DNA of 64,000 nucleotides from an uncultured Bacteroidota bacterium (GTDB lineage: Bacteria > Bacteroidota > Bacteroidia > Bacteroidales > P3), in NCBI GenBank assembly GCA_902784465.1, contig CACZUZ010000008.1, forward strand, positions 2,963 through 66,962, read 5' to 3'. Each line of letters starts with the position of its first letter. Position 1 is the stretch's first letter. A program made the translations under genes and the position numbers. The notes beneath the pieces were generated by a model that was not told where the DNA came from, searched no databases, and saw only the letters and a list, made by a program, of their open reading frames with translations. Below, piece by piece: positions 27,895 to 42,344 of the stretch.

Positions 27895-30486
27895 ATGCGA
27901 CTTAGACCACTGATATTGTTTGCCGTGATGGCAATGATGGCAAACCTTGCAAACGCCCAGAAAGGCGAGATTTCGGGTAAAGTTATCGACAAACAGAGCA
28001 ACAAGGGTGTGGAGTATGCCTCTGTTGTGCTGCTCAACCCCAAAGACAGCAGCATGGTGCATGGCATCGGCGCCGTCACATCGGGCAACGGCACGTTCAG
28101 CATCTCGGCTCCCTACGGCAGCTATCTGGTGCGTGTATCGTTTATGGGCTACGCCACCTACATACACCCCACGAAAGTGTCCATCAGCCAGAAACAGCCC
28201 ATCGCACAGCTGGGCAAACTGGTCATCTCGCCCAGCTCCGCGGCTCTCGACGCGGTGGTGGTGACGGCTCAGCGTACCATGGTTGAATACCAACTCGACA
28301 AACGTGTGGTCAATGTCGACAAAAACATTGTCTCGGGCGGTGGCACCGCCACGGATGTGCTGGAGCAGGTGCCCAGCGTGGCCATCGACAACGACGGCAA
28401 CGTGACGCTCCGCGGCTCGTCGAACGTCAAAGTGCTGGTCAACGGCCGACCCAGCGAGCTGCTCGCCAGCGACCTCAGCACACTGCTGGAGCAAATCCCA
28501 GCCACCACTGTCGAAAGCGTGGAAGTCATCACCAACCCCTCGGCCAAGTACGACCCCGAAGGCATGAGCGGCATCATCAACATCAAACTCAAGGACAAGA
28601 CTGCCGGAGCCTTGGGCCTCAACGGAGTGGCCAACCTCAACATGGGTGCTCCCCTACCCTTCGCCATACCCGACCGATTGGCCGACATGAATACTGGCAG
28701 CCCCATCTCAAAGCTGATTCCCACCCTGATGGGCAACGTAAGCCTCAACTATTCGACCGAGAAATACAGCATTTTCTTCAATGCCGATGCTGGCCTTCAG
28801 CAACGTGGCAACCGCAGCAACTCGGACATCGAGTACCTTACCCCTGCCAAAAAGACCATCACTCACAACGACATAGACCAGTACAGCCTGAACCCTAACC
28901 GCATGGGCAGCATCAAAGTGGGTGGCGAGTACTACTTCAACGACAAGAACAGCCTGCTTCTGTCGTACCAGCTGCGGGGCGGCATACGCGAACGCAACAG
29001 CAACATCTTCGCCACCGACATACTCTATGACGACTCGCTCCACTATAACCAGACGGCAACAAGCGAGAACAGCAACACCAACCACTCTTTCAACCTGCTG
29101 TACACCAAGAAATTCGACCGCAAGGACGAGGAGCTGACCCTGGATGCCACCTTCAGCACACGCCAGATGGGCGGCGAGGGTGAACAGGAGCAACTATACA
29201 ATGACATGGCTGCCAACTACGAGAACTACTACATGCGCCGAAGCGTCACCGAGAACCATCATCAAGCCCTTAACATCAAGCTCAACTGGCTGCGCCCCAT
29301 CGACACCCTCTTCGGCAGGGCCGGTTGGCGACTCGAAAGCGGCTACGAGGGTCGCATGGACTGGCCCGACCAGCAAGCCGACTACTACCGCACCGTATAC
29401 AACACCGGCAACAGCCTGTACGACTACTACGACTCTCTGTCGTCGACCCATTTCGACTATCGCCAGCAGGTGCACGCCATCTATGCCACCCTCGGCGGCA
29501 ACCTCACCAATGCGCTGTCACTCCAGGCCGGTCTACGCGGCGAGTATGCAAGCATCTACGGCCACGACCTGTACCATCCTCAGACGGCAGCCATCGACAA
29601 GCCCTACTGGCAGCTCTACCCTACCCTGCACCTCTCCTACAAGATTAACGAGCAGCAGAGCGCCCAGCTGAGCTACAGCCGCCGCGTGCATCGTCCCCAC
29701 ATGTGGGACCTCAACCCCTACATGGACATCCGCGAGGACAACCAGATGAGTTTCGGCAACCCCAACCTCGACCCCGAATACACCAATGCCTACGAACTGA
29801 GCTACAACCTGGGCATCGACAAGGTGAACATCTTCACCTCGCTCTACTACCGCCAAACCAACAACATGATAACCCACTACGGTTTCACATGGTGTTACGA
29901 CAGCGTGGCACGCTACGCATGGTGGGAGCCATACAATGATCAATACGACGGCTACCGCGCATCGACACGCCTCAACCTCAGCACGGGCTACAACTACGGC
30001 ATGGAATTCATCTTCGACTGGCAGATGTTCAAGTGGTGGAAACTCAACGTCAGCGTCAACCTGTACCAGAGCTACATAGAGGGTACCGAGCTGCTCAACA
30101 ACCAGAGCAGTGCCTCGTTCCAGGCCAGCGGCAAGTTCACCTCGTTCATGACGCTGCCCAAGGATTGGACCATCCAGCTCAGCGGCCAGTATTGGGCTCC
30201 CTGGCTCGACCTGCAGACCAAGATGGATCCCAGCTACTGGCTTGACTTGGCCGTGAAAAAGGATGTGTTCCAGAAACGAGGCACCATCAACCTTCGCGTG
30301 AGCGATGTGCTATGCACGGGCGGATGGGGCCACACCACCTACAGCGACACCTTCAACCGCGTTGTCAAGGCCAAACGCCTGTCGCCGGTTGTGACCATAG
30401 GCTTCAGCTGGAAAATCAACAACGGTTTGAAACAAAAAATGCAGCAGGAGGGTGAAGAAGGTGGCGACGAAAGCACAATATACTGA
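27895..30486 (+). CDS. TonB-dependent-receptor-like outer-membrane beta-barrel protein (CarboxypepD_reg N-domain)
   Basis: Inner ATG at 27895 gives signal peptide MRLRPLILFAVMAMMANLANAQ. It has a GKVIDKQSNKGVEYASVVLLN carboxypeptidase-regulatory-like domain, a plug-like region, and a long Y/N/S-rich barrel ending ..GFSWKI. Confidence 0.8.
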   Translation: MRLRPLILFAVMAMMANLANAQKGEISGKVIDKQSNKGVEYASVVLLNPKDSSMVHGIGAVTSGNGTFSISAPYGSYLVRVSFMGYATYIHPTKVSISQKQPIAQLGKLVISPSSAALDAVVVTAQRTMVEYQLDKRVVNVDKNIVSGGGTATDVLEQVPSVAIDNDGNVTLRGSSNVKVLVNGRPSELLASDLSTLLEQIPATTVESVEVITNPSAKYDPEGMSGIINIKLKDKTAGALGLNGVANLNMGAPLPFAIPDRLADMNTGSPISKLIPTLMGNVSLNYSTEKYSIFFNADAGLQQRGNRSNSDIEYLTPAKKTITHNDIDQYSLNPNRMGSIKVGGEYYFNDKNSLLLSYQLRGGIRERNSNIFATDILYDDSLHYNQTATSENSNTNHSFNLLYTKKFDRKDEELTLDATFSTRQMGGEGEQEQLYNDMAANYENYYMRRSVTENHHQALNIKLNWLRPIDTLFGRAGWRLESGYEGRMDWPDQQADYYRTVYNTGNSLYDYYDSLSSTHFDYRQQVHAIYATLGGNLTNALSLQAGLRGEYASIYGHDLYHPQTAAIDKPYWQLYPTLHLSYKINEQQSAQLSYSRRVHRPHMWDLNPYMDIREDNQMSFGNPNLDPEYTNAYELSYNLGIDKVNIFTSLYYRQTNNMITHYGFTWCYDSVARYAWWEPYNDQYDGYRASTRLNLSTGYNYGMEFIFDWQMFKWWKLNVSVNLYQSYIEGTELLNNQSSASFQASGKFTSFMTLPKDWTIQLSGQYWAPWLDLQTKMDPSYWLDLAVKKDVFQKRGTINLRVSDVLCTGGWGHTTYSDTFNRVVKAKRLSPVVTIGFSWKINNGLKQKMQQEGEEGGDESTIY

Positions 30487-33404: not shown

Positions 33405-33526
33405 AAAACAGGGTGTCAAGCAAAACAGGACAGCTGTAAACAAAAACAGGTAAATGTGATGCTAAGTGTAAACCCAAACCGTGACGTTGTAAACCAGATT
33501 AGGAATATGATGCAAACAATGTAAAC
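33405..33526. repeat. array of AAAACAGG and TGTAAAC short direct repeats at the island left junction
   Basis: AAAACAGG occurs at 33405, 33422 and 33443. TGTAAAC occurs at 33435, 33467, 33488 and 33520, with spacings of 32/21/32 nt. TGCAAAC occurs at 33511. Confidence 0.75.
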
Positions 33527-33597
33527 CAATTTAGTTTTGCTGTGGCGTCGGCTCGGCCGACAACCATTCCAAATCTGTCAACCAATTTCAGGGAAAG

Positions 33598-34548
33598 TCA
33601 GTCGCTTACCAACAGGCGCATTTCGCGTTCTCGGTAGATTTCAAATTCTTTCTCTGCTTTTTCTATAGCCTCTTGATGTGATACAGTACCATTGCCTTCT
33701 AAGATATTTTTTCTCAATCGCAATATATGGTCATCTAAAGCAGCAATCCAATCCGCCATAGTCATCGGATTTTGCTCCAACGCCTGAAATTCAGCATAGT
33801 CGAGGAACTGAGAGGTAAGCAGATTCAGCCGTTGCAGTTCCAATTCCGAGAGGTAGTTTTTGGCTATCTTCACATCGTCACGCGTCACGTAGTTACCCTT
33901 GAAGTTGGTCATGCCAACAAAAGGTTTCTCATTATCCACACGATCATAAATCAGCTCTGCTGCCGTATGTTCATGCACGGCATAGTGCATCTTATTCTGA
34001 ACGGTAGCAAAGAACAGCTTCGTCATCTTGGCCCTTGGGTCATAGTCGGTCGATGTGGCATAGATATCCGTAACCTGCTGATAGAAGTTACGTTCGCTGC
34101 TGCGGATGTCGCGGATACGCTGCAAGAGTTCCTTGAAGTATCGGTTGCCACCTTGCTTTAGTCGCTCATCGTCCATCGTAAAGCCCTTTTGAATATACTC
34201 ATGCAACCGTTGAGTAGCCCAGCGACGGAAGCGTACGGCAATGGGCGACTGAACACGGTAACCAAGGGCAATAATCATGTCCAAATTGTAATAGGTTATA
34301 TCTCGTTGCACTTGACGTTTGCCCTCCTGTCGAACTGTCAAGAAATTCTTTACAGTTCGATTCTCCTCCAATTCACCATCGGCCAAAACATTGTCAATAT
34401 GCTGACTTACATTCTGTTTTGTAGTGCAATAGATTTCAGCCAGCTGCTGCTGCGTCAGCCACACATCCTCGTCAGCAAAGCGCACGTTCACATTCACCTT
34501 GCCTTCATCATCCTTATAGAGTATCAGTTTGTTCTCTTTCTCTGCCAT
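33598..34548 (-). CDS. RhuM-family virulence/defence-island protein
   Basis: 316 aa. The RhuM pattern holds throughout: ILYKDDEGKV.V.VRF.DE.VWLTQQQLAE.Y, Y.NLDMIIALGYRV.S..A..FR.WAT..L.EY..KGF, ERNFYQ and TDIYATS.DYD. Confidence 0.85.
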   Translation of the reverse strand: MAEKENKLILYKDDEGKVNVNVRFADEDVWLTQQQLAEIYCTTKQNVSQHIDNVLADGELEENRTVKNFLTVRQEGKRQVQRDITYYNLDMIIALGYRVQSPIAVRFRRWATQRLHEYIQKGFTMDDERLKQGGNRYFKELLQRIRDIRSSERNFYQQVTDIYATSTDYDPRAKMTKLFFATVQNKMHYAVHEHTAAELIYDRVDNEKPFVGMTNFKGNYVTRDDVKIAKNYLSELELQRLNLLTSQFLDYAEFQALEQNPMTMADWIAALDDHILRLRKNILEGNGTVSHQEAIEKAEKEFEIYREREMRLLVSD

Positions 34549-34863: not shown

Positions 34864-37644
34864 CTACACTTTCAAATCTTTTTCCATCTCCATAACTCGT
34901 GGATCATATCCACTCAATCCTTCTGGTTCTTTATTTATCTTTGCCTGAGCTAATTGAATACTGTCGTCAGCAAGTTTCAAATTGAATGAGAGATGGAAAT
35001 CCGGTTTGACCTTGTTCCTGATATCTTTATCAGGATAGAACTCCTTTAACGGCTCAGCATAGCGTCTTTGCAGATAGCCATCGGGGGTATCTATACTAAT
35101 ATTGGCTGTACCCTGAACCATGTATACCTTATGGCTTTTCTTGTTAGAGTATACAAGATAGCCTACGCTGGTGAAGTCTTTGATAACCTGTGGTGTCTTG
35201 GGAGCCACAAACATGGAGGCGCTATAGCCCTTGTCGAGTTTAGATAAGTCGGTGTCATTTATATTGACAACCACAAGCGCTTTGTTGGAATCCCTGTGCG
35301 ATGCAAGAGCATAGTCACTAATCTGTTGTCCTGTCAAGAACACAGGCGACCCATGCCACTCTTCTCGAAGCCATCTCTCAGAAACATCTTCGCCTATGGA
35401 TTTCCTGAATGCTATCTCGTTATAGAGACCTATGTTCAGCATTGCATTTATATTAGCTTGCTCAAAATAAGCCTCTTCCGAGAACGAATACACAATGTAT
35501 GGCCCATCTGGTCTTTCATAGCCATTGCTATCCATCCACTCTGTAGAACGGGTTTTCCAACTCTCAATCCTATAGATATGGTAGTCAAGCTTCTCCCTGT
35601 CATTTATTTCATACAAAACCAAATATCTTGCAGAAACAACATTCTCATCAATAATTCCATTTCTGTAACCATGTCGATTTATTTTTGCTCGAATGTTGTA
35701 CATCATGTGTTCCAGAATCCAATCCAACTGGTTCTTGTCGCCACTGCGGTAGCCTCCCACTAGGAATATTTCGTCCCTGAAGTCTTCGAACTTGAATACC
35801 TTTGACTGGGTTGTCCCCACCCCTTGTCCTTTAGCAGGTCTATATGTCAAATCCGCAAACTTATTGATAACATCGCGTGGATCGGTTCCCAATGCATAAT
35901 AGCGGATGTTGAAATCCATGCTTAATGTTGACAACAATTTCATATTGTCGTCATAGTATTCAGATCCTGTCTCTAAAGAAAGGTATAGGAACTCCTCTTC
36001 CCTGTAAGGTCTGAAGGCTTTGCCTAGCAGTTTGCGGAAGTACTTCTGTTCGACAAGACGATTCATCTTGTCCTTATTAGAAGAATCTTCATCTTCTTCA
36101 GGTGCTTCAACTTCAACAGGTTTCAACTGGAGCGAGAAAAATTGGTATTTCTCTTGAATATCCTTCATAATCTGCTCTCTGAACAGCTTCCTAGCTTTCT
36201 GTTTGAAAGTCTCTTGTGCCAGCACATCCTCGCTGCCATAGACAGACAAAACATACAGGAAATTGATGTCATAGTGCTGGAGCAACAAAGTGTCACGGTC
36301 GAAAAGTCGGTTCTCGAAGTGCACCTTTCGCTCCATTTCACCTTTTATCTCCAGGTCATCGTCTTCATACCCTCTGTCTTCAGGCACATGTGCTCGGATG
36401 AAGAAATTGGGAGTGATATTGTATCCTTCTGTATCTTCATCGCGATAGATCAGGAAGTCATCTCCTGGCGTATATTTTTTGTTGCCGCTGCTGTCCTTTT
36501 GGTTGAACAGGTCAAGATTCGCCTGAATCACATTGCGGGCATATGTATACTGCTTATAGACGGAATACTCCTTAGGGTCATTCTTCTGCTTGTAGTATTT
36601 CGAGTCGCCTATATAGAAGATATCGCCTTGGTTGTGCATAAGTCCGTTGTAGGCATAGATATGGTCAACTCGCTTGCCATCAGTCTGTTCCTTCAGATTC
36701 ATTTTCTCCACACGCTTGTCTTTCTCACATAGCAGATGATCTATCATCTCTTCAAAGACTATGTTGAAATCCTTTGCCAGTAGATGGTCGGAATAGTGGC
36801 TGTTGTTACGTATCTGACTTTGCTTGCTGAAAAAGTCATAGCACAATTGCCACATCTGCACTTGTTTGTCTGCAAAGTAGCGGTGGCGAATCTGTATCAG
36901 CCGTATTTCCCCATAACCATCCAAGTAGTTATCAAAAGCCTCGTCGGTGATGAGTGGGAAATTGTAGTTGATTTTCACGGGAAAGCCATACCTTACCTGC
37001 ATATGTTGAAGAATGGAAAAGAAGATAATGAACAGTTCTTCTTCAAAATTGGCCTGCCGTTTGCGGTTCACCACATCTATATAAACAGGAGAACCATCCT
37101 GTATGACTGCTCGGCCTTGGTTTATGGTCTTTGTCCAGTTAATCTTGTTGTAGCCAGAGTGGATGTTTTTCAGGACAAACGTAAAATAGTTCTGGTTCTC
37201 ATCGTTGAAGCGATGAAGGGAAATCAGAATATCCAGAAATGTGTTATAGACCGATTGACCAGAAAGGCTGTCGGATGGGATATCACGATACAATAATATC
37301 TTTTTATGTTGGTCATCCGCAGAAAAGCGAAACACATTGATGGCACGATAGATCCATACCGACAATCCGTAGATGAATCGGTATTCTTCCTCATTGATGG
37401 TCTTGTTTTCAAGTGATTTCTGAAGGTCAATGATTTTTTCGGGATCATACTGGTGAAACACTTTGTCATCCCTGTCCATCACAACCTTAGGAAGAAAGAA
37501 CACCGTGTCTTTGACATCGTTGGAGTAATAGTATTCCACCATGTCGGTACTATACACTCCGCCCTGCTCAAAGTTAAGAATTTTCTCGAGCAAGGCCTTC
37601 GAAGCCTCTTCTTTGTATTGGTATCCTTCTATAAAAAGCTTCAT
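34864..37644 (-). CDS. LlaJI.R2/McrC-like PD-(D/E)xK nuclease fused to a ~450-aa uncharacterised C-terminal region
   Basis: 926 aa. The N-terminal half has the LlaJI-like start (..VFFLPKV..) and the nuclease core RVD327HIY...IGD347SK349YY. From about aa 470 onward no motif is recognised. Confidence 0.7.
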   Translation of the reverse strand: MKLFIEGYQYKEEASKALLEKILNFEQGGVYSTDMVEYYYSNDVKDTVFFLPKVVMDRDDKVFHQYDPEKIIDLQKSLENKTINEEEYRFIYGLSVWIYRAINVFRFSADDQHKKILLYRDIPSDSLSGQSVYNTFLDILISLHRFNDENQNYFTFVLKNIHSGYNKINWTKTINQGRAVIQDGSPVYIDVVNRKRQANFEEELFIIFFSILQHMQVRYGFPVKINYNFPLITDEAFDNYLDGYGEIRLIQIRHRYFADKQVQMWQLCYDFFSKQSQIRNNSHYSDHLLAKDFNIVFEEMIDHLLCEKDKRVEKMNLKEQTDGKRVDHIYAYNGLMHNQGDIFYIGDSKYYKQKNDPKEYSVYKQYTYARNVIQANLDLFNQKDSSGNKKYTPGDDFLIYRDEDTEGYNITPNFFIRAHVPEDRGYEDDDLEIKGEMERKVHFENRLFDRDTLLLQHYDINFLYVLSVYGSEDVLAQETFKQKARKLFREQIMKDIQEKYQFFSLQLKPVEVEAPEEDEDSSNKDKMNRLVEQKYFRKLLGKAFRPYREEEFLYLSLETGSEYYDDNMKLLSTLSMDFNIRYYALGTDPRDVINKFADLTYRPAKGQGVGTTQSKVFKFEDFRDEIFLVGGYRSGDKNQLDWILEHMMYNIRAKINRHGYRNGIIDENVVSARYLVLYEINDREKLDYHIYRIESWKTRSTEWMDSNGYERPDGPYIVYSFSEEAYFEQANINAMLNIGLYNEIAFRKSIGEDVSERWLREEWHGSPVFLTGQQISDYALASHRDSNKALVVVNINDTDLSKLDKGYSASMFVAPKTPQVIKDFTSVGYLVYSNKKSHKVYMVQGTANISIDTPDGYLQRRYAEPLKEFYPDKDIRNKVKPDFHLSFNLKLADDSIQLAQAKINKEPEGLSGYDPRVMEMEKDLKV

Positions 37645-37651
37645 GCTTCTT

Positions 37652-37834
37652 GTCTTAAACTTACATTTTTTGTATAAATCTATTAATTAGATAACACGTT
37701 ATTTTACAGTATTTTTTACCCTAAATTCGTCTTAAATTTACATTTTTCGTTTAAATCTTACCATCTAACAAAATACTGTATTTGTGAGCTTTATACAAAG
37801 AATTCGTTTAGATTTTACATTTTTCGTTTAAATC
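37652..37834. repeat. ~76-bp tandem repeat (2.4 units) filling the spacer between the AlbA_2 gene and the nuclease gene
   Basis: Three 30-nt cores are present: gtcttaaacttacattttttgtataaatct (37652..37681), gtcttaaatttacatttttcgtttaaatct (37729..37758) and gtttagattttacatttttcgtttaaatct (37805..37834). The periods are 77 and 76 nt. Copies 2 and 3 share 22 identical nt and the preceding aattcgt. Confidence 0.85.
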
Positions 37835-39526
37835 TCACTTGATCAGAACCCACTGTTTTTTCTCGTTCACCTTTATTATTTTGTGTATTCTCAGATAAGA
37901 CAGAAGATTAGTTATCTTATTCTTCTTCTGCTGTTCTGACAATACATCCGACAACTTGTTCATCAGCAGTTCGTCTATCTCCGACCTACTGGCCGTTCCA
38001 AACTTCTCAAGATAATTCACAATCATTCTACGGAAGTACTCGTCGTCAAAGCTCTTGTTCTTCACATACGTCGATTTCAAGCCCACGTTGCCAGTGTTCT
38101 TGGTGATGGCTTTCGAAAGAAACAATCCATTCTTGCGACCCTCAACGTATTTCTTCTTTCTCAAATACTTAATCTCTTCGTCTTCCAATTTCTTTTGCTT
38201 CTGCACCTTGTCAAGCAGAATTAAGTCCAACATAGATAGATTGGGCACGCTGACCAATATCCTGGCAAACTGCTCATTGATGACCTTGCCCTCGATATCC
38301 ACCGTCACCATTCCGCCTGAGGTGTCGTATTCAGGCATAGGAAAGAAACGTTTCTTCTGCTGCTCAAACAGCTTCTTGATGCCACCACCTTCAGTATCCA
38401 CCATGTGCACATTCCTCATGGCTTCAACCAAGAACGGATTACGATAGATGGATTCAGGACTATTGTCCAACACCACTTTTTCCACCGATTCGGGAAGAAA
38501 CACTCCGTGGTTACGGAACACCAAATGGTCGTTCTCATATTCAATCACCTCAATTCTAGCACCTTTCTCGTAGTCTTGATGAGCAATTGCGTTATTCAGT
38601 GGCTCACGCAAAGTGAACTCGTCATATCGGAAGAGCTTTTCTGGGAAAATGTTGCCGCTGATGGTAAACTCATACGATGTGTTGCGAATCTGATCTCCTA
38701 TGTCCTCAATGGCCATAATCATAGGAATGGAGAACACCTTGAAGTCAAGATTCTCCGCCCGCTCGTTCCTCAGCGTCCACCGGACTTTGCAAACTCTCGG
38801 CAGCAGATAGTGTTCTGACTCCTCACGACCCACAAGGATGATAGCCGCTATGGTTATCTTTCCCTTGATGGTGATATGAGCCTTGTTCAGGAATGTCTTG
38901 TCGTCCCATCCGTCCACCTCCTTGTCTTTGCCTGGATGCACTTCTTTATATTTCTCTCGGGCTTTCAAGATGGCAACAGGATCAAGGTCCTCGATGGTGG
39001 CGTCCGGCAGTATCTGAGCCGTCCAGTCTTGTTGCAACATTCCCTCGCTCAAGATGACCTCCTCTCGCTCGTATGTCAAAGGAACGAGGTTGTCCTTGAT
39101 TCTCTGCCAGGCTTTCTTGTGCGCATACACAGGCCTACGGGGCAGATGCTTGGGAATATGAATGACCCATACCACCTTGTGAGTGTCGCTGGTGATGTAT
39201 TCGTCGATATAAAGACCTTCCGAGGAAACGTTAGTGCAATTCTCCTTAATCTTATAGATGGCTGAATTAGTGTCGAGATTGAACTGTGAGAGGTCTGTTC
39301 CAACAATCTCCAACGTCTTATCCTTGACGCCGATTACCAGCACGCCACCCTCCATATTCGCAATGCCCGACACATACGACATCACGTCCTCCCCCTCATG
39401 CCCATTGAAGGAGTTCTTCAGATTCTTCATCTCTTTCCAATCACACTTCTCATCCTCCACTGGATAGTGAGAAACCAGATAATCCCGTAATTCTTTCTCA
39501 GTCATACTTTTCTTGTGATCGCTCAT
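37835..39526 (-). CDS. AlbA_2 (Schlafen-type) / HATPase_c_4 / wHTH protein (COG2865-like putative regulator)
   Basis: The first ATG (39526) lies 1 nt after the McrB-like stop. The track start is TTG at 39550 and would overlap by 23 nt. The AlbA_2 motif is IANMEGGVLVIGVKDKTLEIVG and the HATPase_c_4 motif is LREPLNNAIAHQDYEKGARIEVIEYENDHLVFRNHG. A C-terminal wHTH-like tail is present. Confidence 0.8.
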   Translation of the reverse strand: MSDHKKSMTEKELRDYLVSHYPVEDEKCDWKEMKNLKNSFNGHEGEDVMSYVSGIANMEGGVLVIGVKDKTLEIVGTDLSQFNLDTNSAIYKIKENCTNVSSEGLYIDEYITSDTHKVVWVIHIPKHLPRRPVYAHKKAWQRIKDNLVPLTYEREEVILSEGMLQQDWTAQILPDATIEDLDPVAILKAREKYKEVHPGKDKEVDGWDDKTFLNKAHITIKGKITIAAIILVGREESEHYLLPRVCKVRWTLRNERAENLDFKVFSIPMIMAIEDIGDQIRNTSYEFTISGNIFPEKLFRYDEFTLREPLNNAIAHQDYEKGARIEVIEYENDHLVFRNHGVFLPESVEKVVLDNSPESIYRNPFLVEAMRNVHMVDTEGGGIKKLFEQQKKRFFPMPEYDTSGGMVTVDIEGKVINEQFARILVSVPNLSMLDLILLDKVQKQKKLEDEEIKYLRKKKYVEGRKNGLFLSKAITKNTGNVGLKSTYVKNKSFDDEYFRRMIVNYLEKFGTASRSEIDELLMNKLSDVLSEQQKKNKITNLLSYLRIHKIIKVNEKKQWVLIK

Positions 39527-39527
39527 G

Positions 39528-41009
39528 TCACTGTTCTTCGTTTTTGGCAATTACTTTGTCGATAAACTCCTTTACCAAAGAAAGGTCGATAGCTTCGGGG
39601 TTCGTAGCCTCGTCAGGAGTGATATTGTCTGGATAAAAGTCGTGGAAAGAAATCTTATTGCTATTCGCCCTTTTGAAGATGTCGCTCTTGAAGCCATAGT
39701 CTTTGAACACATCCTGCCACAGGTAGAACACCACCTTGCCCACAAAGGTCTCGGCAGAAATGATGGTGTTGTATTCGTCAGCCTCATCGGCTTTCTTGTC
39801 CGGCTTGCAGAAGAAGTAGCCCAATTTCTTGTCCTCGCTCTTGGTGGCATCTTCTATCTGTTTATTGATAGCTTTGACGAAATTCCACCATGGTACATCA
39901 ACAAGTTCAGCGGGCTCCTCGTCCTTGGCTGGAATGGTGAATTTGATTCTATAATTCAAGGGCTCTCCATCCTTCTTTTTGCCCTCAGCGATACGAACAT
40001 ATTTCCATTCCCATCTACGTTTGAAAGCGCTGTCGATGGGGAACAAACTTTGGTCGCTAGTGTTCATCGTCGCCCAAATGTAGAGGTTCTTGGGCAGACG
40101 CAACTTTCCATCTTTTATGCCATCCTTATTGGTCAAAATATCCTTACCGTTCTCATCTTTCCCGTTAAGGTATTTGGCCAAGTCCTTATCTGCCATTATG
40201 GGATATTCCGAGCAACCGTCGCGATCTCTGTCAAGCAGTTGGAACAGGTCTCCGAAAATCTGTGCGCAGTTGCCGCGATTGATTTCCTCGATGACAAGGA
40301 ACACTTTATCGTCCGGGTTGTTCCATGCCGCCACGTAGGCCTGGAGAAAAGCCTGTGGTACAAAAGAGTAGGTGATGCACTTTTCGTACACCTCTTCCTT
40401 GTCAGTGTTTTTCACTATGTCACCAGCCACATTGCGAACAGCTCTTTTATCCATGGTAGGCTTGTATGCACCCACAAATGTCGAATAGTCACTATCAGGA
40501 TGGAATGTGGTGCGGAACACCAAGTTCTTTTCATCGGCAGCCTTCACGCCTGCGTCATCCTTTATTCTGTGGCTTTTGCCTGTGCCTGGGGCTCCGTAGA
40601 ATATTTGTTGGAGAGCAAGGTCGTTCACTTCATTCTTTTCTTTCTCCGTAGGAACATTTAAGAACATTTTTTTTGCATACAAAAACCTCAAATAGTGTTT
40701 TAATGTGTTAGAATACTGGTTTCCACCCTTTTCATCATAATCAACAAACTTTTTTTGATTGGTCAGTTTGTTAATTACATCTTCAAACTCAACAGGATTG
40801 TCAAAATCCAGAATGGAAATTCCCTGTTTTTTGGGGAACAATAATTCAAGACACTCATTTATTCGTTTGAAATCAGAGTAATTTTTCACACTCTTTGCAT
40901 TGGTTGTGCACTTGATTATGAAATCCTGATATAAATGAAGTTGCTTTTCTATGTTCATTTTTCTTGTTTTTGAAGTTCCTTGCTCATTGTTCGCTTCCAC
41001 TATATCCAT
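39528..41009 (-). CDS. McrB-type AAA+ GTPase (LlaJI.R1-like) with unassigned N-terminal domain
   Basis: 493 aa, or 476 aa from the ATG at 40958. It has Walker A FYGAPGTGKSH, Walker B VFLVIEEINRGN, McrB signatures IFGDLFQLLDRD and IWATMNTSDQS, and FKRRWEW. Confidence 0.85.
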   Translation of the reverse strand: MDIVEANNEQGTSKTRKMNIEKQLHLYQDFIIKCTTNAKSVKNYSDFKRINECLELLFPKKQGISILDFDNPVEFEDVINKLTNQKKFVDYDEKGGNQYSNTLKHYLRFLYAKKMFLNVPTEKEKNEVNDLALQQIFYGAPGTGKSHRIKDDAGVKAADEKNLVFRTTFHPDSDYSTFVGAYKPTMDKRAVRNVAGDIVKNTDKEEVYEKCITYSFVPQAFLQAYVAAWNNPDDKVFLVIEEINRGNCAQIFGDLFQLLDRDRDGCSEYPIMADKDLAKYLNGKDENGKDILTNKDGIKDGKLRLPKNLYIWATMNTSDQSLFPIDSAFKRRWEWKYVRIAEGKKKDGEPLNYRIKFTIPAKDEEPAELVDVPWWNFVKAINKQIEDATKSEDKKLGYFFCKPDKKADEADEYNTIISAETFVGKVVFYLWQDVFKDYGFKSDIFKRANSNKISFHDFYPDNITPDEATNPEAIDLSLVKEFIDKVIAKNEEQ

Positions 41010-41207: not shown

Positions 41208-41293
41208 TCACATATCAGTCACATAAAACAAACTCTGTTTTTCAGTAGTTTACATTTTACTACCACTTGAGTCATCACATATCAGTCACATAA
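41208..41293. repeat. perfect 19-bp direct repeat pair
   Basis: tcacatatcagtcacataa occurs at 41208..41226 and 41275..41293, 48 nt apart, immediately 3' of the DUF1016 stop codon (41298..41300). Confidence 0.9.
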
Positions 41294-41297
41294 GATT

Positions 41298-42344
41298 TCA
41301 TTCATTCTTGGATTCCTCTTCTTCCACAATCTTTCCCACAATCTGCCGCAACCGCTCTGTGTCGGGCAGATAAAGCTCGTATTTCGACACGAATAGGTTG
41401 GTGTTTATACCATAGGTGGCATATTCCACCATCAGGTCGTCCTTGTAGTGCGAGAGGATGATGCCGATGGGAGGATTGTCATCGGGTTGATTCTCTTCCT
41501 TTGCAAAATAACCGAGATACATATTCATTTGACCTATGTCCTCGTGCTGTACCCCGTCACGTTTTAGATCAATAAGGACAAAACAACGCAATATGCGGTG
41601 ATAAAACACCAAGTCGCAATGGTAGTGGCGATTGTTGACGGAGATGGAATATTGCCGTTTGACGAACGTGAAACCCTTTCCCATCTCGAGCAGGAACATC
41701 TGCAGGTTGTCTATGATGCGCTGTTCCAACAGCGTCTCTGAATAACGGTAGTCTTCCTGAATTCCAAGGAACTCCAATGTGTAACTGTCGCGAACCACAT
41801 CTTCCGGCTTTTGGATGGTGATGCCCTCTTTGGCCAATGCAAGCACGCCCTCTTTGTCTTTGCTGGCCGCCAAACGGAGATACAAGGCCGAACTCATCTG
41901 TCGTTTCAAAGTGCGCACATCCCACTTCTGAGCGATGCACTCTTTCTCGTAAAAACTACGTTCAAGGTCGTCTTCTGCCTGCATCAATACGCAAATATGC
42001 GTCCAGCTCAAATTGTCAGTCACTGACTGACAATTGGGGTATAACAGATAGAACTTTCTCATATTCACAAGGTTGGGGCGACTGAACCCACGTCCAAAGC
42101 GCACCGTGAGTTGATGTGAAAGTTCGGTCAATGTGGAAGTGCCGTAAGCCACCTTCGCTTGCCCACCCTGCTCGTATTCCACAATGTATTTCCCAATCTG
42201 CCAATAGGCTTTGGTCATCGTGGCGTTGATATGAGAGGCAACCTTTCTGCGCGCATCGTTGATGGCCATCGATATGTTGTCAATCAACGGTTGCAGCGTA
42301 GTGATACTATCTGTGGTGGTAATGACTTTTGACATAGTCGTCAT
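41298..42344 (-). CDS. DUF1016/YhcG-family PDDEXK nuclease
   Basis: 348 aa. The YhcG pattern is AYWQIGK.IVE.EQ...KA.YG, LS.L..FGRGFS..NL..MR.FY and FY....I...W.VR.L.RQ. The nuclease core is HCDLVFYH..L.C.VLIDLK. Confidence 0.85.
   Translation of the reverse strand: MTTMSKVITTTDSITTLQPLIDNISMAINDARRKVASHINATMTKAYWQIGKYIVEYEQGGQAKVAYGTSTLTELSHQLTVRFGRGFSRPNLVNMRKFYLLYPNCQSVTDNLSWTHICVLMQAEDDLERSFYEKECIAQKWDVRTLKRQMSSALYLRLAASKDKEGVLALAKEGITIQKPEDVVRDSYTLEFLGIQEDYRYSETLLEQRIIDNLQMFLLEMGKGFTFVKRQYSISVNNRHYHCDLVFYHRILRCFVLIDLKRDGVQHEDIGQMNMYLGYFAKEENQPDDNPPIGIILSHYKDDLMVEYATYGINTNLFVSKYELYLPDTERLRQIVGKIVEEEESKNE

What the first reader, a model, noticed from the sequence alone, without database searches (positions are those of the whole stretch)
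37652..37834. ~76-bp tandem repeats (2.4 units) occupy the whole spacer between the AlbA_2-wHTH gene and the nuclease gene
Three 30-nt cores (37652..37681, 37729..37758, 37805..37834) recur with periods of 77 and 76 nt. Copies 2 and 3 share 22 identical bases plus the preceding AATTCGT. Copy 3 ends at the stop codon of gene B, and copy 1 ends 7 nt upstream of the nuclease ATG in mRNA sense. This is too ordered for a plain AT-rich spacer. It could be an operator array for the adjacent wHTH protein, giving delayed or controlled nuclease expression in the manner of C-protein control in R-M systems. It could also be reiterated promoters, or a small structured RNA.
Basis: seen in the sequence. Interest (0 to 1): 0.6.

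Follow-up and report, generated by a model that had tools for sequence, protein, structure and literature searches.

The report
Binding-site array trailing a Schlafen gene
The three 77-bp-spaced repeats are real and belong to the upstream Schlafen-ATPase-winged-helix defence gene, whose relatives across phyla almost always carry their own lineage-specific direct-repeat array right after the stop codon, most likely the DNA sites that the protein's own winged helix binds.

Summary
Observation confirmed. Three 31-nt cores lie on the minus strand at 37834-37804, 37757-37727 and 37680-37650, exactly 77 nt apart. They fill the spacer between the AlbA_2/Schlafen-GHKL-wHTH gene and the LlaJI/McrC-like nuclease gene. 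Each core is two ~10-nt half-sites (ATTTAAACGA-like) 19-20 nt apart. It is the only such cluster in the 2.53-Mb genome.

The array belongs to the Schlafen gene, not to the nuclease. None of 31 related McrB+nuclease loci has the gene or the repeats, and in the closest ones the two genes abut. So gene plus repeats is a ~1.9-kb insertion. Close homologues of the Schlafen gene in unrelated contexts carry the same cores immediately after their stop codon, and 16 of 18 keep the 77-nt spacing.

Distant homologues carry different short direct-repeat arrays at the same place: 22/27 Bacteroidales loci, 12/23 loci of a phylum-wide sample, 3/3 alphaproteobacterial plasmids. A control family scored 1/29. 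Repeat sequence follows the C-terminal winged helix rather than the protein body.

Best reading: a cognate wHTH binding-site array, here placed to gate the nuclease. This is inferred, not shown. Conserved RNA structure, canonical promoters, CRISPR and phage copies were not supported. No paper found describes the array.

The parts
37804..37834 (-). It starts on the base after the TGA stop. Half-sites are ATTTAAACGA (37833-37824) and ATCTAAACGA (37813-37804), 20 nt apart.
   Evidence: the same core follows the stop codon of close homologues in unrelated loci
37758..37803 (-). Inter-core spacer 1 (46 nt). Its length is conserved among relatives but its sequence is variable. It contains a TTTGT...ACAAA hairpin and TACAGTA.
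   Evidence: hairpin not supported as a conserved structure
37727..37757 (-). Core B (copy 2): GATTTAAACGAAAAATGTAAATTTAAGACGA. Half-sites start at 37756 and 37737. It lies 77 nt from core A.
   Evidence: core B sits 77 nt after core A in 16 of 18 related loci
37681..37726 (-). Inter-core spacer 2 (46 nt). It contains AAAATACTGTA, the inverted complement of the spacer-1 motif.
37650..37680 (-). Core B' (copy 1): GATTTATACAAAAAATGTAAGTTTAAGACAA. It is an extra duplicated unit specific to this insertion lineage. It ends 5 nt before the nuclease ATG.
   Evidence: shared with L280 and with the G123 remnant L053
37835..39505 (-). Schlafen (AlbA_2) + GHKL ATPase (HATPase_c_4) + wHTH gene, 556 aa from the ATG at 39505. 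The longest ORF starts at a TTG at 39550; homologues are 555-556 aa.
   Evidence: Pfam PF04326 3.9e-11 and PF13749 4.7e-11; homologue lengths; a profile built from homologues hits the nuclease domains of SLFN11/14/5/8 in PDB
37838..38050 (-). Coding region of the C-terminal winged helix-turn-helix (residues ~501-571).
   Evidence: AlphaFold2 pLDDT 80-95 with H-b-H-H-b-b topology; Foldseek top hits are all winged-helix domains, including DtxR/IdeR and IclR
37645..39527 (-). Inserted cassette (Schlafen gene plus array) between the McrB-like stop and the nuclease start.
   Evidence: In L032 and L033 (nuclease 87% and 83% identical) the McrB-like stop and the nuclease ATG abut or overlap; 0 of 31 related loci have a Schlafen gene there
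39528..41009 (-). McrB-like AAA_5 GTPase gene, with an intact C-terminus.
34864..37644 (-). LlaJI.R2/McrC-like nuclease gene (926 aa).
   Evidence: no Pfam hit itself, but homologues at 45-56% identity carry PF09563 or are named LlaJI restriction endonuclease

Best explanation
The three cores are an array of six direct half-sites (consensus about ATTTAAACGA). They are paired 19-20 bp apart, and the pairs recur every 77 bp. The array is the cis-linked partner of the upstream gene. That gene encodes a prokaryotic Schlafen RNase domain, a GHKL ATPase and a C-terminal winged helix (a 'Schlatpase-HTH' or pSlfn-HisKinase-HTH protein).

The most likely mechanism is as follows. The winged helix of this ATP-dependent oligomer binds the half-sites cooperatively, and the two or three cores are bridged by one tetramer or higher oligomer.

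Gene and array move together as one cassette. Here the cassette was inserted exactly between the stop of an McrB-like GTPase gene and the start of its LlaJI/McrC-like nuclease partner. As a result the nucleoprotein complex covers the whole 190-bp leader of the nuclease gene, and the last core ends 5 nt before its ATG. It probably throttles read-through or initiation of nuclease expression. It may also hold the Schlafen protein at its own locus.

Shown: the repeat anatomy, the insertion, co-mobility, the family-wide presence of arrays, and the tracking of repeat sequence with the wHTH. Inferred: binding by the wHTH, oligomer bridging, and any effect on the nuclease.
For: 1. Anatomy. Six half-sites are offset by 20, 57, 19, 58 and 19 nt, and this is the only such cluster in the genome.

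2. The array belongs to the Schlafen gene.
- The identical core A starts at the stop codon of 73-95% identical homologues that lie beside Crp-like, AbiH, DUF2357-nuclease and housekeeping neighbours.
- No sequence is conserved upstream of their ATG.
- 0 of 31 McrB/LlaJI-like loci without the Schlafen gene have it, and in the closest two the genes abut.

3. The A-to-B distance is 77 nt in 16 of 18 loci although the spacer sequence varies. This points to a spatial constraint, not a sequence constraint.

4. Family-wide feature (exact 8-mer repeat score in the 150 nt after the stop).
- Score of at least 3 in 22/27 Bacteroidales homologues of 30-53% identity, against 2/26 upstream. The downstream window is the top window of the whole locus in 16/27.
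- 12/23 in a phylum-wide sample, against 1/21 upstream.
- Three direct TA(C/A)GAAAG repeats fill the 61-nt spacer in 3/3 alphaproteobacterial plasmids.
- Control: YhcG/DUF1016 passenger genes of the same order score 1/29.

5. Repeat sequences are lineage-specific (GAGTTTACGA, ACTTATACGA, GAGAACTTAAGA, TTAGTCGCG, TTTAGACGA and others). Periods are mostly 10-12 bp. The paralogue in the same genome uses TTACGYGAG.

6. Repeats follow the wHTH.
- L086 shares 75-78% of its body but only 36-40% of its last 75 aa with L083-85/89, and shares no repeat 7-mers with them.
- L086 shares 63-67% of the wHTH with L074/L254 (body 43-45%), and shares their TTTAGAC(ATT) repeats.
- Only 1 of 19 pairs with the same body and a different wHTH shares repeats.
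- Standardised logistic coefficients are 0.68 for the wHTH and 0.31 for the body.

7. The C-terminus is a confident winged helix resembling the DNA-binding domains of DtxR/IdeR/IclR.

8. Orphan arrays sit in genomes with no Schlafen homologue, and their core B is partly decayed.

9. In both McrBC-like insertions (the window and L041-44) the last core abuts the nuclease start codon.

10. Published work treats the C-terminal domains of these proteins as sensor or regulatory modules. It shows ATP-driven tetramers and inactive filaments for a relative (bioRxiv 10.64898/2026.05.29.728809; PMC13056530; PMC12839542).
Against: - No binding experiment, transcript map or protein-DNA model exists, and RNA-seq could not be consulted.
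- The wHTH-repeat association is confounded by physical linkage. The 3' end of the gene and the array are adjacent, so any recombination that swaps one swaps the other.
- The putative recognition helix (QKKNKxxNLL) is rather conserved between lineages with different repeats.
- A site array downstream of its own gene cannot autoregulate in the classical way.
- Arrays also occur where nothing obviously regulated follows (L034, L040).
- 77 bp is 7.3 helical turns, so the cores are not on the same face.
- About a third of the homologues sampled show no exact-8-mer array.
- This single spacer folds as RNA better than shuffles (z = -3.15).
Confidence: 0.55

Rival explanations
1. Cassette-end or recombination site. 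The array is the cis site by which the promoterless Schlafen gene cassette is excised or integrated, like an integron attC or transposon-end binding sites, by a recombinase encoded elsewhere.
For: - Gene plus array moves as a unit into precise intergenic positions. This happened twice between the two genes of McrBC-like pairs.
- Homology starts at the ATG and ends after core B.
- Several loci keep only a 2-57-codon 3' remnant of the gene plus the array.
- Transposon ends such as Tn7 and Mu carry multiple direct subterminal binding sites (own knowledge).
Against: - Repeats are on one side only.
- No target duplication or inverted terminal repeat was seen at the junctions.
- No integrase or transposase is linked in the loci examined.
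- The repeats diverge with the wHTH of the cargo protein itself. A trans-acting recombinase site would not be expected to do that.
- The remnants look like deletions with point decay, not precise excisions.
Confidence: 0.12
2. 3'-UTR RNA element. The repeats act as RNA on the Schlafen mRNA. Examples would be an antitoxin-like decoy for the Schlafen RNase (by analogy with the repeat antitoxins of type III toxin-antitoxin systems), a stabiliser, or a 3'-derived small RNA.
For: - The array always starts at the stop codon and keeps one orientation relative to the gene.
- In L045-L049 a GC hairpin plus a T-run follows core B, so the cores would be transcribed.
- The protein's N-domain is a Schlafen-type RNase (PMC13056530).
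- This spacer folds at -33.5 kcal/mol against -23.7 for shuffles, z = -3.15.
Against: - RNAalifold finds no consensus structure on 14 related sequences (-0.36 kcal/mol).
- The one recurring hairpin is 68% paired against 63% in shuffles and ~60% when slid by 2.
- Units in distant relatives are only 8-12 nt, far shorter than the 34-40-nt pseudoknot units of ToxI-type antitoxins (own knowledge).
- No Rfam family matches.
- The stable fold here comes from palindromic motifs (TTTAAA, TACNGTA) present in direct copies.
Confidence: 0.12
3. Sites for another factor, or a plain expression adaptor. The A-rich repeats would provide promoters or translation-initiation context for whatever gene lies downstream of the inserted cassette, or would bind a host nucleoid or regulatory protein rather than the Schlafen wHTH.
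For: - The insertion broke the tight coupling of the McrB-like and nuclease genes, so some element must restore nuclease expression.
- Arrays often run up to the downstream start codon.
- Orphan arrays persist without the protein.
Against: - No match to the Bacteroidota TTTG / TAnnTTTG promoter consensus at the right spacing. This was inspected by eye on the sequence and was not scanned by script.
- The sigma-70-type scan is at background (3 found against 1.9 expected).
- The repeat sequence differs in every lineage and even between two paralogues in one genome. That argues against a common host factor or shared promoter motif.
- Control passenger genes lack arrays.
Confidence: 0.13
4. Functionless relic. 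The repeats would be slippage or duplication products in AT-rich island DNA that hitch-hike with the gene.
For: - The third unit (B') is clearly a local duplication, 72% identical over 71 nt.
- The island is AT-rich and decaying (first-reader notes).
Against: - Position, orientation and 77-nt spacing are conserved across 73-95% identical homologues.
- Analogous arrays recur at 30-50% protein identity and in another phylum.
- The spacer is at least as conserved as the flanking coding DNA between the window and L280.
- The control family is at 1/29.
Confidence: 0.05

Closest known systems
Prokaryotic Schlafen-GHKL(HisKinase-like)-wHTH proteins ('Schlatpase'-HTH; pSlfn-HisKinase-HTH; COG2865)
   Same: The upstream gene is a member. 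It has an AlbA_2/Schlafen domain, an HATPase_c_4 domain and a C-terminal winged helix. It is embedded in a restriction-type operon in a defence island, as described for RM and BREX loci (PMC13056530; PMC12839542; bioRxiv 10.64898/2026.05.29.728809).
   Different: Those papers describe the proteins only. None of the passages I searched mentions a repeat array 3' of the genes or any DNA ligand of the wHTH.
Iteron or centromere-type arrays next to the gene of their binding protein (parC/ParR of plasmid R1; RepA iterons and incA of P1)
   Same: Short direct repeats occur in clusters, with roughly helical spacing within a cluster. The clusters are separated by a fixed distance, lie adjacent to the gene of the protein that binds them, and show lineage-specific site-protein pairs (own knowledge of these systems).
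   Different: There is no replication or partition context. The protein is an RNase-ATPase-wHTH, not an RHH or Rep protein. The array is chromosomal, inside restriction operons.
C-protein (controller) operators of type II restriction-modification systems
   Same: An HTH protein is encoded inside a restriction operon, and repeated sites lie in front of the nuclease gene. Timing or limiting of nuclease expression is conceivable.
   Different: C-boxes are inverted repeats upstream of the C gene, and C proteins are ~80-100-aa XRE-type dimers. Here there are direct repeats downstream of a 556-aa protein, no methyltransferase, and arrays that also occur without a following nuclease.
Type III toxin-antitoxin systems (ToxIN, CptIN, TenpIN)
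   Same: Tandem direct repeats are adjacent to, and co-oriented with, an RNase gene in a phage-defence context.
   Different: The antitoxin repeats precede the toxin, are 34-40 nt, and fold into conserved pseudoknots cut by the toxin (own knowledge). Here the repeats follow the gene, units can be 8-12 nt, and no conserved structure is found.
PrrC anticodon nuclease inside the EcoprrI type I R-M locus
   Same: A latent tRNA-targeting nuclease with an NTPase domain is inserted between the genes of a restriction system, as a presumed second line of defence (own knowledge).
   Different: PrrC has no DNA-binding domain and no associated repeat array. It is silenced by protein-protein contact with the restriction enzyme.

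Membership tests
Schlafen-GHKL-wHTH (Schlatpase-HTH / pSlfn-HisKinase-HTH) protein | N-terminal Schlafen/AlbA_2 domain | tested here: met
   PF04326, E 3.9e-11. A profile of homologues hits the nuclease domains of SLFN11/14/5/8.
Schlafen-GHKL-wHTH (Schlatpase-HTH / pSlfn-HisKinase-HTH) protein | Central GHKL-type ATPase (HATPase_c_4, PF13749) | tested here: met
   PF13749, E 4.7e-11; PDB 3LMM match over the same region.
Schlafen-GHKL-wHTH (Schlatpase-HTH / pSlfn-HisKinase-HTH) protein | C-terminal (winged) helix-turn-helix | tested here: met
   AF2 pLDDT 80-95, H-b-H-H-b-b. Foldseek top hits are all winged helices. No Pfam HTH model reaches it.
Schlafen-GHKL-wHTH (Schlatpase-HTH / pSlfn-HisKinase-HTH) protein | tRNA cleavage and phage defence | not testable with these tools
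   By eye only: the E-x4-E-[FW]-K motif reads E-x4-D-W-K in this protein and its close kin. Activity is unknown.
Cognate operator/iteron array of the adjacent DNA-binding protein | Repeated sites with regular spacing, unique to the locus | tested here: met
   Six half-sites at 19-20-nt and 77-nt spacings; the only such cluster in the genome.
Cognate operator/iteron array of the adjacent DNA-binding protein | Site sequence co-varies with the DNA-binding domain across lineages | tested here: met
   Domain-swap cases and a pairwise analysis. Caveat: physical linkage of the 3' gene end and the array.
Cognate operator/iteron array of the adjacent DNA-binding protein | Direct binding of the protein to the sites | not testable with these tools
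   Needs EMSA, footprinting or ChIP. No protein-DNA modelling tool was available.
C-protein-controlled restriction-modification system | Small XRE-type C protein with palindromic C-boxes upstream of its own gene, and a cognate methyltransferase | tested here: not met
   The protein is 556 aa with Schlafen and GHKL domains. The repeats are direct and downstream. No methyltransferase is in the operon.
Type III toxin-antitoxin | Repeat RNA with conserved fold, upstream of a ToxN/AbiQ-type toxin | tested here: not met
   No consensus structure. The repeats are downstream. The protein is not ToxN-like. No Rfam hit.
CRISPR array | Identical repeats separated by unique spacers, usually with cas genes or a known repeat family | tested here: not met
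   Copies are 77-90% identical. The 'spacers' share motifs and are homologous between loci. No Rfam CRISPR family lies on the repeats, and no cas genes are nearby.
McrBC / LlaJI-type restriction system (host operon) | AAA_5 GTPase gene directly followed by its PD-(D/E)xK partner gene | tested here: inconclusive
   AAA_5 and a weak McrB model hit. The nuclease itself has no Pfam hit, but its homologues carry PF09563. Adjacency holds in relatives but is interrupted here by the 1.9-kb cassette.

The most novel reading that the evidence does not exclude
The array is a cis-encoded 'DNA antidote or anchor'. The wHTH tethers the Schlafen tRNase as an inactive oligomer or filament on a handful of sites beside its own gene. 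This would parallel the way guide-RNA filaments keep Schlafen-Argonaute silent. Loss of that tether would release active tetramers that cleave tRNA and abort infection. The tether could be lost through phage degradation of host DNA, competition by phage DNA or proteins, or a collapse of the host restriction operon. The exchangeable wHTH-plus-array module would then be a private lock-and-key that prevents cross-talk between paralogues.
Probability: 0.15. Interest if true: 0.85.

Novelty: new variant of a known kind. Interest (0 to 1): 0.62.

Why it matters
Schlafen-GHKL-HTH proteins are the commonest class of bacterial Schlafens. Two 2026 studies put them at tens of thousands of genes. They sit inside R-M, BREX and McrBC operons, yet nobody knows what their HTH 'sensor' binds or how the tRNase is kept off.

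A conserved, lineage-specific direct-repeat array immediately 3' of these genes supplies a concrete candidate ligand. It turns the question into simple experiments: EMSA, array deletion, and wHTH/array swaps. It also gives annotators a cis signature for the cassette and its remnants.

For this locus it explains the odd 190-bp ordered spacer. It also shows that the 'three-gene module' is an McrBC-like pair split by a mobile Schlafen cassette.

Tried and rejected
- Tandem Repeats Finder found nothing at the site. The repeat is real but too few and too divergent for it.
- Rfam with permissive thresholds gave only sub-threshold noise.
- RNAalifold on 14 related arrays gave no consensus structure.
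- A spacer hairpin that looked compensatory by eye did not beat shuffles or slid controls, and its register differs between loci.
- Promoters: the sigma-70-type scan was at background and found no terminator. By eye I saw no Bacteroidota -33/-7 consensus at the correct spacing.
- CRISPR mini-array (the 77-nt period matches some Bacteroidota arrays): rejected. The 'spacers' are homologous between loci and share motifs.
- The idea that such arrays follow any passenger gene of restriction operons (prompted by the 19-nt repeat after the YhcG gene in this window): rejected. Only 1/29 YhcG homologues have one.
- Phage-borne copies of the core: a viral-contig scan gave 98 loose matches (80 loci listed). 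Among the loci listed, none resembled the full core beyond one 6-mismatch hit.
- The metagenome pattern scan mostly returned unrelated elements: an insect-gut repeat family and a CRISPR array. About ten loci were relevant.
- Similarity of copy 1 to the 3' end of the McrB-like gene of L032: judged low-complexity coincidence.
- Full-length AlphaFold model: poor overall (pLDDT 43, shallow alignment) and used only for the confident C-terminus.
- The genome-contig scan with the nuclease found only one locus.
Full report
**Observation**

All the genes concerned lie on the minus strand:
- a YhcG/DUF1016 nuclease, 41298-42344
- an McrB-like AAA_5 GTPase, 39528-41009
- an AlbA_2 (Schlafen) + HATPase_c_4 protein, 37835-39505/39550
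- a 926-aa protein, 34864-37644
- RhuM, 33598-34548

These genes sit in a low-GC island: about 40-46% GC at 34-44 kb, against about 54% elsewhere.

Read in mRNA sense, the 190 nt between the Schlafen stop (TGA, 37837-37835) and the ATG of the 926-aa gene (37644-37642) contain three cores:
- Core A, 37834-37804: GATTTAAACGAAAAATGTAAAATCTAAACGA
- Core B, 37757-37727: GATTTAAACGAAAAATGTAAATTTAAGACGA
- Core B', 37680-37650: GATTTATACAAAAAATGTAAGTTTAAGACAA

The cores start exactly 77 nt apart. Each core is itself two direct half-sites (ATTTAAACGA-like) 19-20 nt apart.

The pattern is not chance:
- The core had no match in 100 shuffles.
- The spacer is unique in the 2.53-Mb assembly.
- A degenerate half-site pattern forms only one cluster of at least 3 hits per 200 nt in the whole genome. 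That cluster is this locus, with six hits.

Tandem Repeats Finder misses the repeat. A second sample (L280, nuclease 96% identical) has the same three cores with 5 changes in 190 nt. That is no more than in the flanking coding sequence.

**What the neighbours are**

The 926-aa protein has no Pfam, PADLOC, NCBIfam or PDB sequence hit itself. It has thousands of homologues, however. Those at 45-56% identity carry PF09563 (RE_LlaJI) or are named LlaJI restriction endonuclease. It is therefore the McrC-like partner of the McrB-like GTPase.

The gene in between encodes a Schlafen-type domain and a GHKL ATPase. A profile of homologues hits the nuclease domains of SLFN11/14/5/8.

Its last ~70 residues are predicted with pLDDT 80-95 as helix-strand-helix-helix-hairpin. 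The best Foldseek matches are all winged-helix domains: cullin WHB, Rpa2-WH, DtxR/IdeR, IclR and ORC2 (probability 0.94-1.0, E 0.02-0.1).

This is the architecture recently called Schlatpase-HTH or pSlfn-HisKinase-HTH:
- It is described as the most common class of prokaryotic Schlafens and as a 'backup' RNase embedded in R-M and BREX loci (PMC13056530; PMC12839542; bioRxiv 10.64898/2026.05.29.728809).

**The repeats belong to the Schlafen gene, not to the nuclease**

In the two closest nuclease loci with context (L032 at 87%, L033 at 83%), the McrB-like stop and the nuclease ATG abut or overlap. None of 31 related McrB/LlaJI-like loci from the same family of genomes holds a Schlafen gene between the two. 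The McrB-like protein of the window is intact to its last residue.

So the Schlafen gene plus the spacer (about 37645-39527) is a ~1.9-kb insertion placed exactly between the two genes.

Conversely, close homologues of the Schlafen protein (73-95% identity) occur in quite different settings:
- next to a Crp-like regulator and housekeeping genes (L034-39)
- after AbiH (L040)
- between a weak AAA_5 NTPase and a DUF2357-PDDEXK_7 nuclease (L041-44)

In all of them core A follows the stop codon directly, and a second core follows 76-77 nt later. Upstream of the ATG nothing is conserved.

In 16 of 18 such loci the A-to-B distance is 77 nt, although the 46-nt spacer between them varies freely. Two cores are the rule. 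The third core (B') is a local duplication (71 nt, 72% identical). It is shared only with L280 and with a decayed locus in a sister species (L053). There, cores B and B' plus the first 13 codons of the nuclease are fused to a RhuM N-terminus.

**A family-wide feature**

I then asked whether distant homologues have anything similar.

*Bacteroidales sample.* In 27 loci from about 25 genera (30-53% identity), the 150 nt after the stop contain arrays of short direct repeats. They often form two clusters 60-100 nt apart. The sequences differ by lineage:
- GAGTTTACGA x7
- ACTTATACGA x4
- GAGAACTTAAGA x8
- TTAGTCAAT x3
- TTTAGACGA x3
- ACATCTTTTAG x5
- TTAGTCGCG x3
- TTAGATAAAC x3
- AAGATAAAGA

An exact-8-mer repeat score of at least 3 was reached downstream in 22/27 loci, against 2/26 upstream. 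In 16/27 the downstream window was the most repetitive of the whole 4.5-kb locus.

*Other samples.*
- A phylum-wide sample gave 12/23 downstream against 1/21 upstream.
- Three alphaproteobacterial plasmids carry the arrangement methyltransferase, Schlafen protein, DEAD helicase (32-34% identity). Their 61-nt spacer holds three direct TA(C/A)GAAAG repeats.
- As a control, homologues of the YhcG/DUF1016 passenger gene from the same order scored 1/29.
- The window's own genome has a second, 37%-identical paralogue followed by TTACGYGAG repeats. Two different protein/array pairs therefore coexist in one cell.

**Which part of the protein do the repeats follow?**

The C-terminal 75 residues are exchanged between lineages independently of the body.
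- L086 shares 75-78% of its body with L083/84/85/89 but only 36-40% of the winged helix. It has none of their repeat 7-mers.
- L086 shares 63-67% of the winged helix with L074/L254 (body 43-45%), and it has their TTTAGAC(ATT) repeats.
- Of 19 pairs with the same body and a different winged helix, one shares repeats.
- In a logistic fit over 990 pairs, the standardised coefficient is 0.68 for the winged helix and 0.31 for the body.

This is what a cognate protein/site pair predicts. Physical linkage of the 3' gene end and the array would give the same pattern, however, so it is supportive rather than decisive.

Several loci keep only a 2-57-codon remnant of the gene plus the array. Four such genomes have no Schlafen homologue anywhere, two of them 96-98% complete. 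In two of them (L050, L051) core B has lost its second half-site.

**Alternatives tested**

*RNA.*
- The spacer of the window folds better than shuffles (z = -3.15). This comes from direct copies of palindromic motifs.
- RNAalifold finds no consensus structure on 14 related sequences (-0.36 kcal/mol).
- The one recurring hairpin does not beat controls.
- Rfam is silent.
- Units of 8-12 nt in relatives are unlike type III antitoxin RNAs.

*Promoters.*
- By eye I saw no Bacteroidota -33/-7 consensus at the right spacing. I did not scan for it by script.
- The sigma-70 scan is at background and finds no terminator.

*CRISPR.* The 'spacers' are homologous between loci.

*Mobile-element end.*
- For: the cassette is clearly mobile, and it has twice landed between the two genes of an McrBC-like pair.
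- Against: the repeats lie on one side only, I found no target duplication or linked recombinase, and the sites diverge with the cargo protein's own winged helix.

*Phage copies of the core.* None found.

**Mechanism proposed**

Shown:
- a six-half-site direct-repeat array with fixed geometry
- co-mobility with a Schlafen-GHKL-wHTH gene
- family-wide, lineage-specific arrays at the same position
- a winged helix at the C-terminus
- insertion into an McrBC-like operon, with the last core 5 nt from the nuclease ATG

Inferred:
- The winged helices of the ATP-dependent oligomer bind the half-sites.
- One tetramer or a short filament bridges cores 77 bp apart.
- In this locus the complex covers the entire leader of the nuclease gene and limits its expression. 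The alternative or additional effect is to park the tRNase at its own locus.

I put 0.55 on 'cognate wHTH binding array'. The downstream consequence remains open.

The more radical version is that DNA tethering is what keeps the tRNase silent until infection. It is compatible with the filament-based silencing reported for Schlafen-Argonaute, but nothing here supports it directly (0.15).

**Comparison with the known, and novelty**

The protein is an ordinary member of a family described in 2026. The host operon is an ordinary LlaJI/McrBC-type pair.

The array works most like iteron or centromere arrays (parC/ParR, Rep iterons). It resembles C-protein operators only loosely, and it fails the defining features of those, of type III toxin-antitoxin systems and of CRISPR.

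In five full-text searches and three papers on bacterial Schlafens I found no mention of repeats 3' of these genes. I therefore rate it a new variant of a known kind: an undescribed cis element attached to a very large defence-protein family. Its value is chiefly that it offers a testable ligand for the unexplained HTH.

Noticed in passing
window 41208-41293 (- strand, just after the YhcG/DUF1016 stop at 41298): A perfect 19-nt direct repeat, TTATGTGACTGATATGTGA, occurs twice 67 nt apart. Each copy is two ATGTGAC half-sites 11 nt apart. The architecture matches the Schlafen array but follows a different gene. YhcG homologues elsewhere lack such arrays (1/29), so it may be the orphan array of a lost neighbour.
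   Followed up: partly
window 33405-33530 (- strand, downstream of the RhuM stop at 33598): GGTTTACA occurs three times plus variants at 21-32-nt spacing, and CCTGTTTT three times. This is another iteron-like array at the island edge. Its origin is unknown.
   Followed up: no
L041-L044 (ENA/NCBI metagenome scaffolds), genes at L041 3281-4948, 5001-6668, 6779-9097: An 86%-identical Schlafen-GHKL-wHTH gene with its array sits between a weak AAA_5 NTPase and a DUF2357-PDDEXK_7 nuclease. This is a second, unrelated McrBC-like pair split at the same junction. Either the cassette targets the GTPase/nuclease boundary or it works with such pairs.
   Followed up: partly
G000 contig C27 about 26420-28231 (locus L093/L250): The same genome has a second Schlafen-GHKL-wHTH paralogue (37% identity). 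It is followed by TTACGYGAG repeats in two clusters and then a helicase gene. One search flagged an internal TAA, another flagged none.
   Followed up: partly
L053 (G123:C58) 1480-1772: A sister species keeps cores B and B' and the first 13 codons of the nuclease, fused in frame to a RhuM-like N-terminus and preceded by an HNH gene. It is a deletion derivative of the same island, and no Schlafen homologue exists anywhere in that assembly.
   Followed up: partly
loci L067-L095, L251-L275 (C-terminal 75 aa of Schlafen-GHKL-wHTH proteins): The winged-helix tail is swapped between lineages independently of the Schlafen-ATPase body. Nineteen pairs have body identity more than 30 points above tail identity. 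This is the behaviour of a specificity module.
   Followed up: yes
window 39440-39460 region, residues 32-39 of the Schlafen protein: The usual E-x4-E-[FW]-K carboxylate motif of the Schlafen/AlbA_2 domain reads E-x4-D-W-K in this protein and all its close relatives. Whether the RNase is active is open.
   Followed up: no
L096, L098, L102 and about 30 other metagenome loci; L108, L113, L135, L157: The pattern scan pulled out an unrelated abundant ~170-nt repeat family (GATTTAAACAAAAAATGCAGTGAATATACC...) from one set of metagenomes. It also pulled out a CRISPR-like array whose repeat ends in ACTACATAGTACGATTTAAAC.
   Followed up: no
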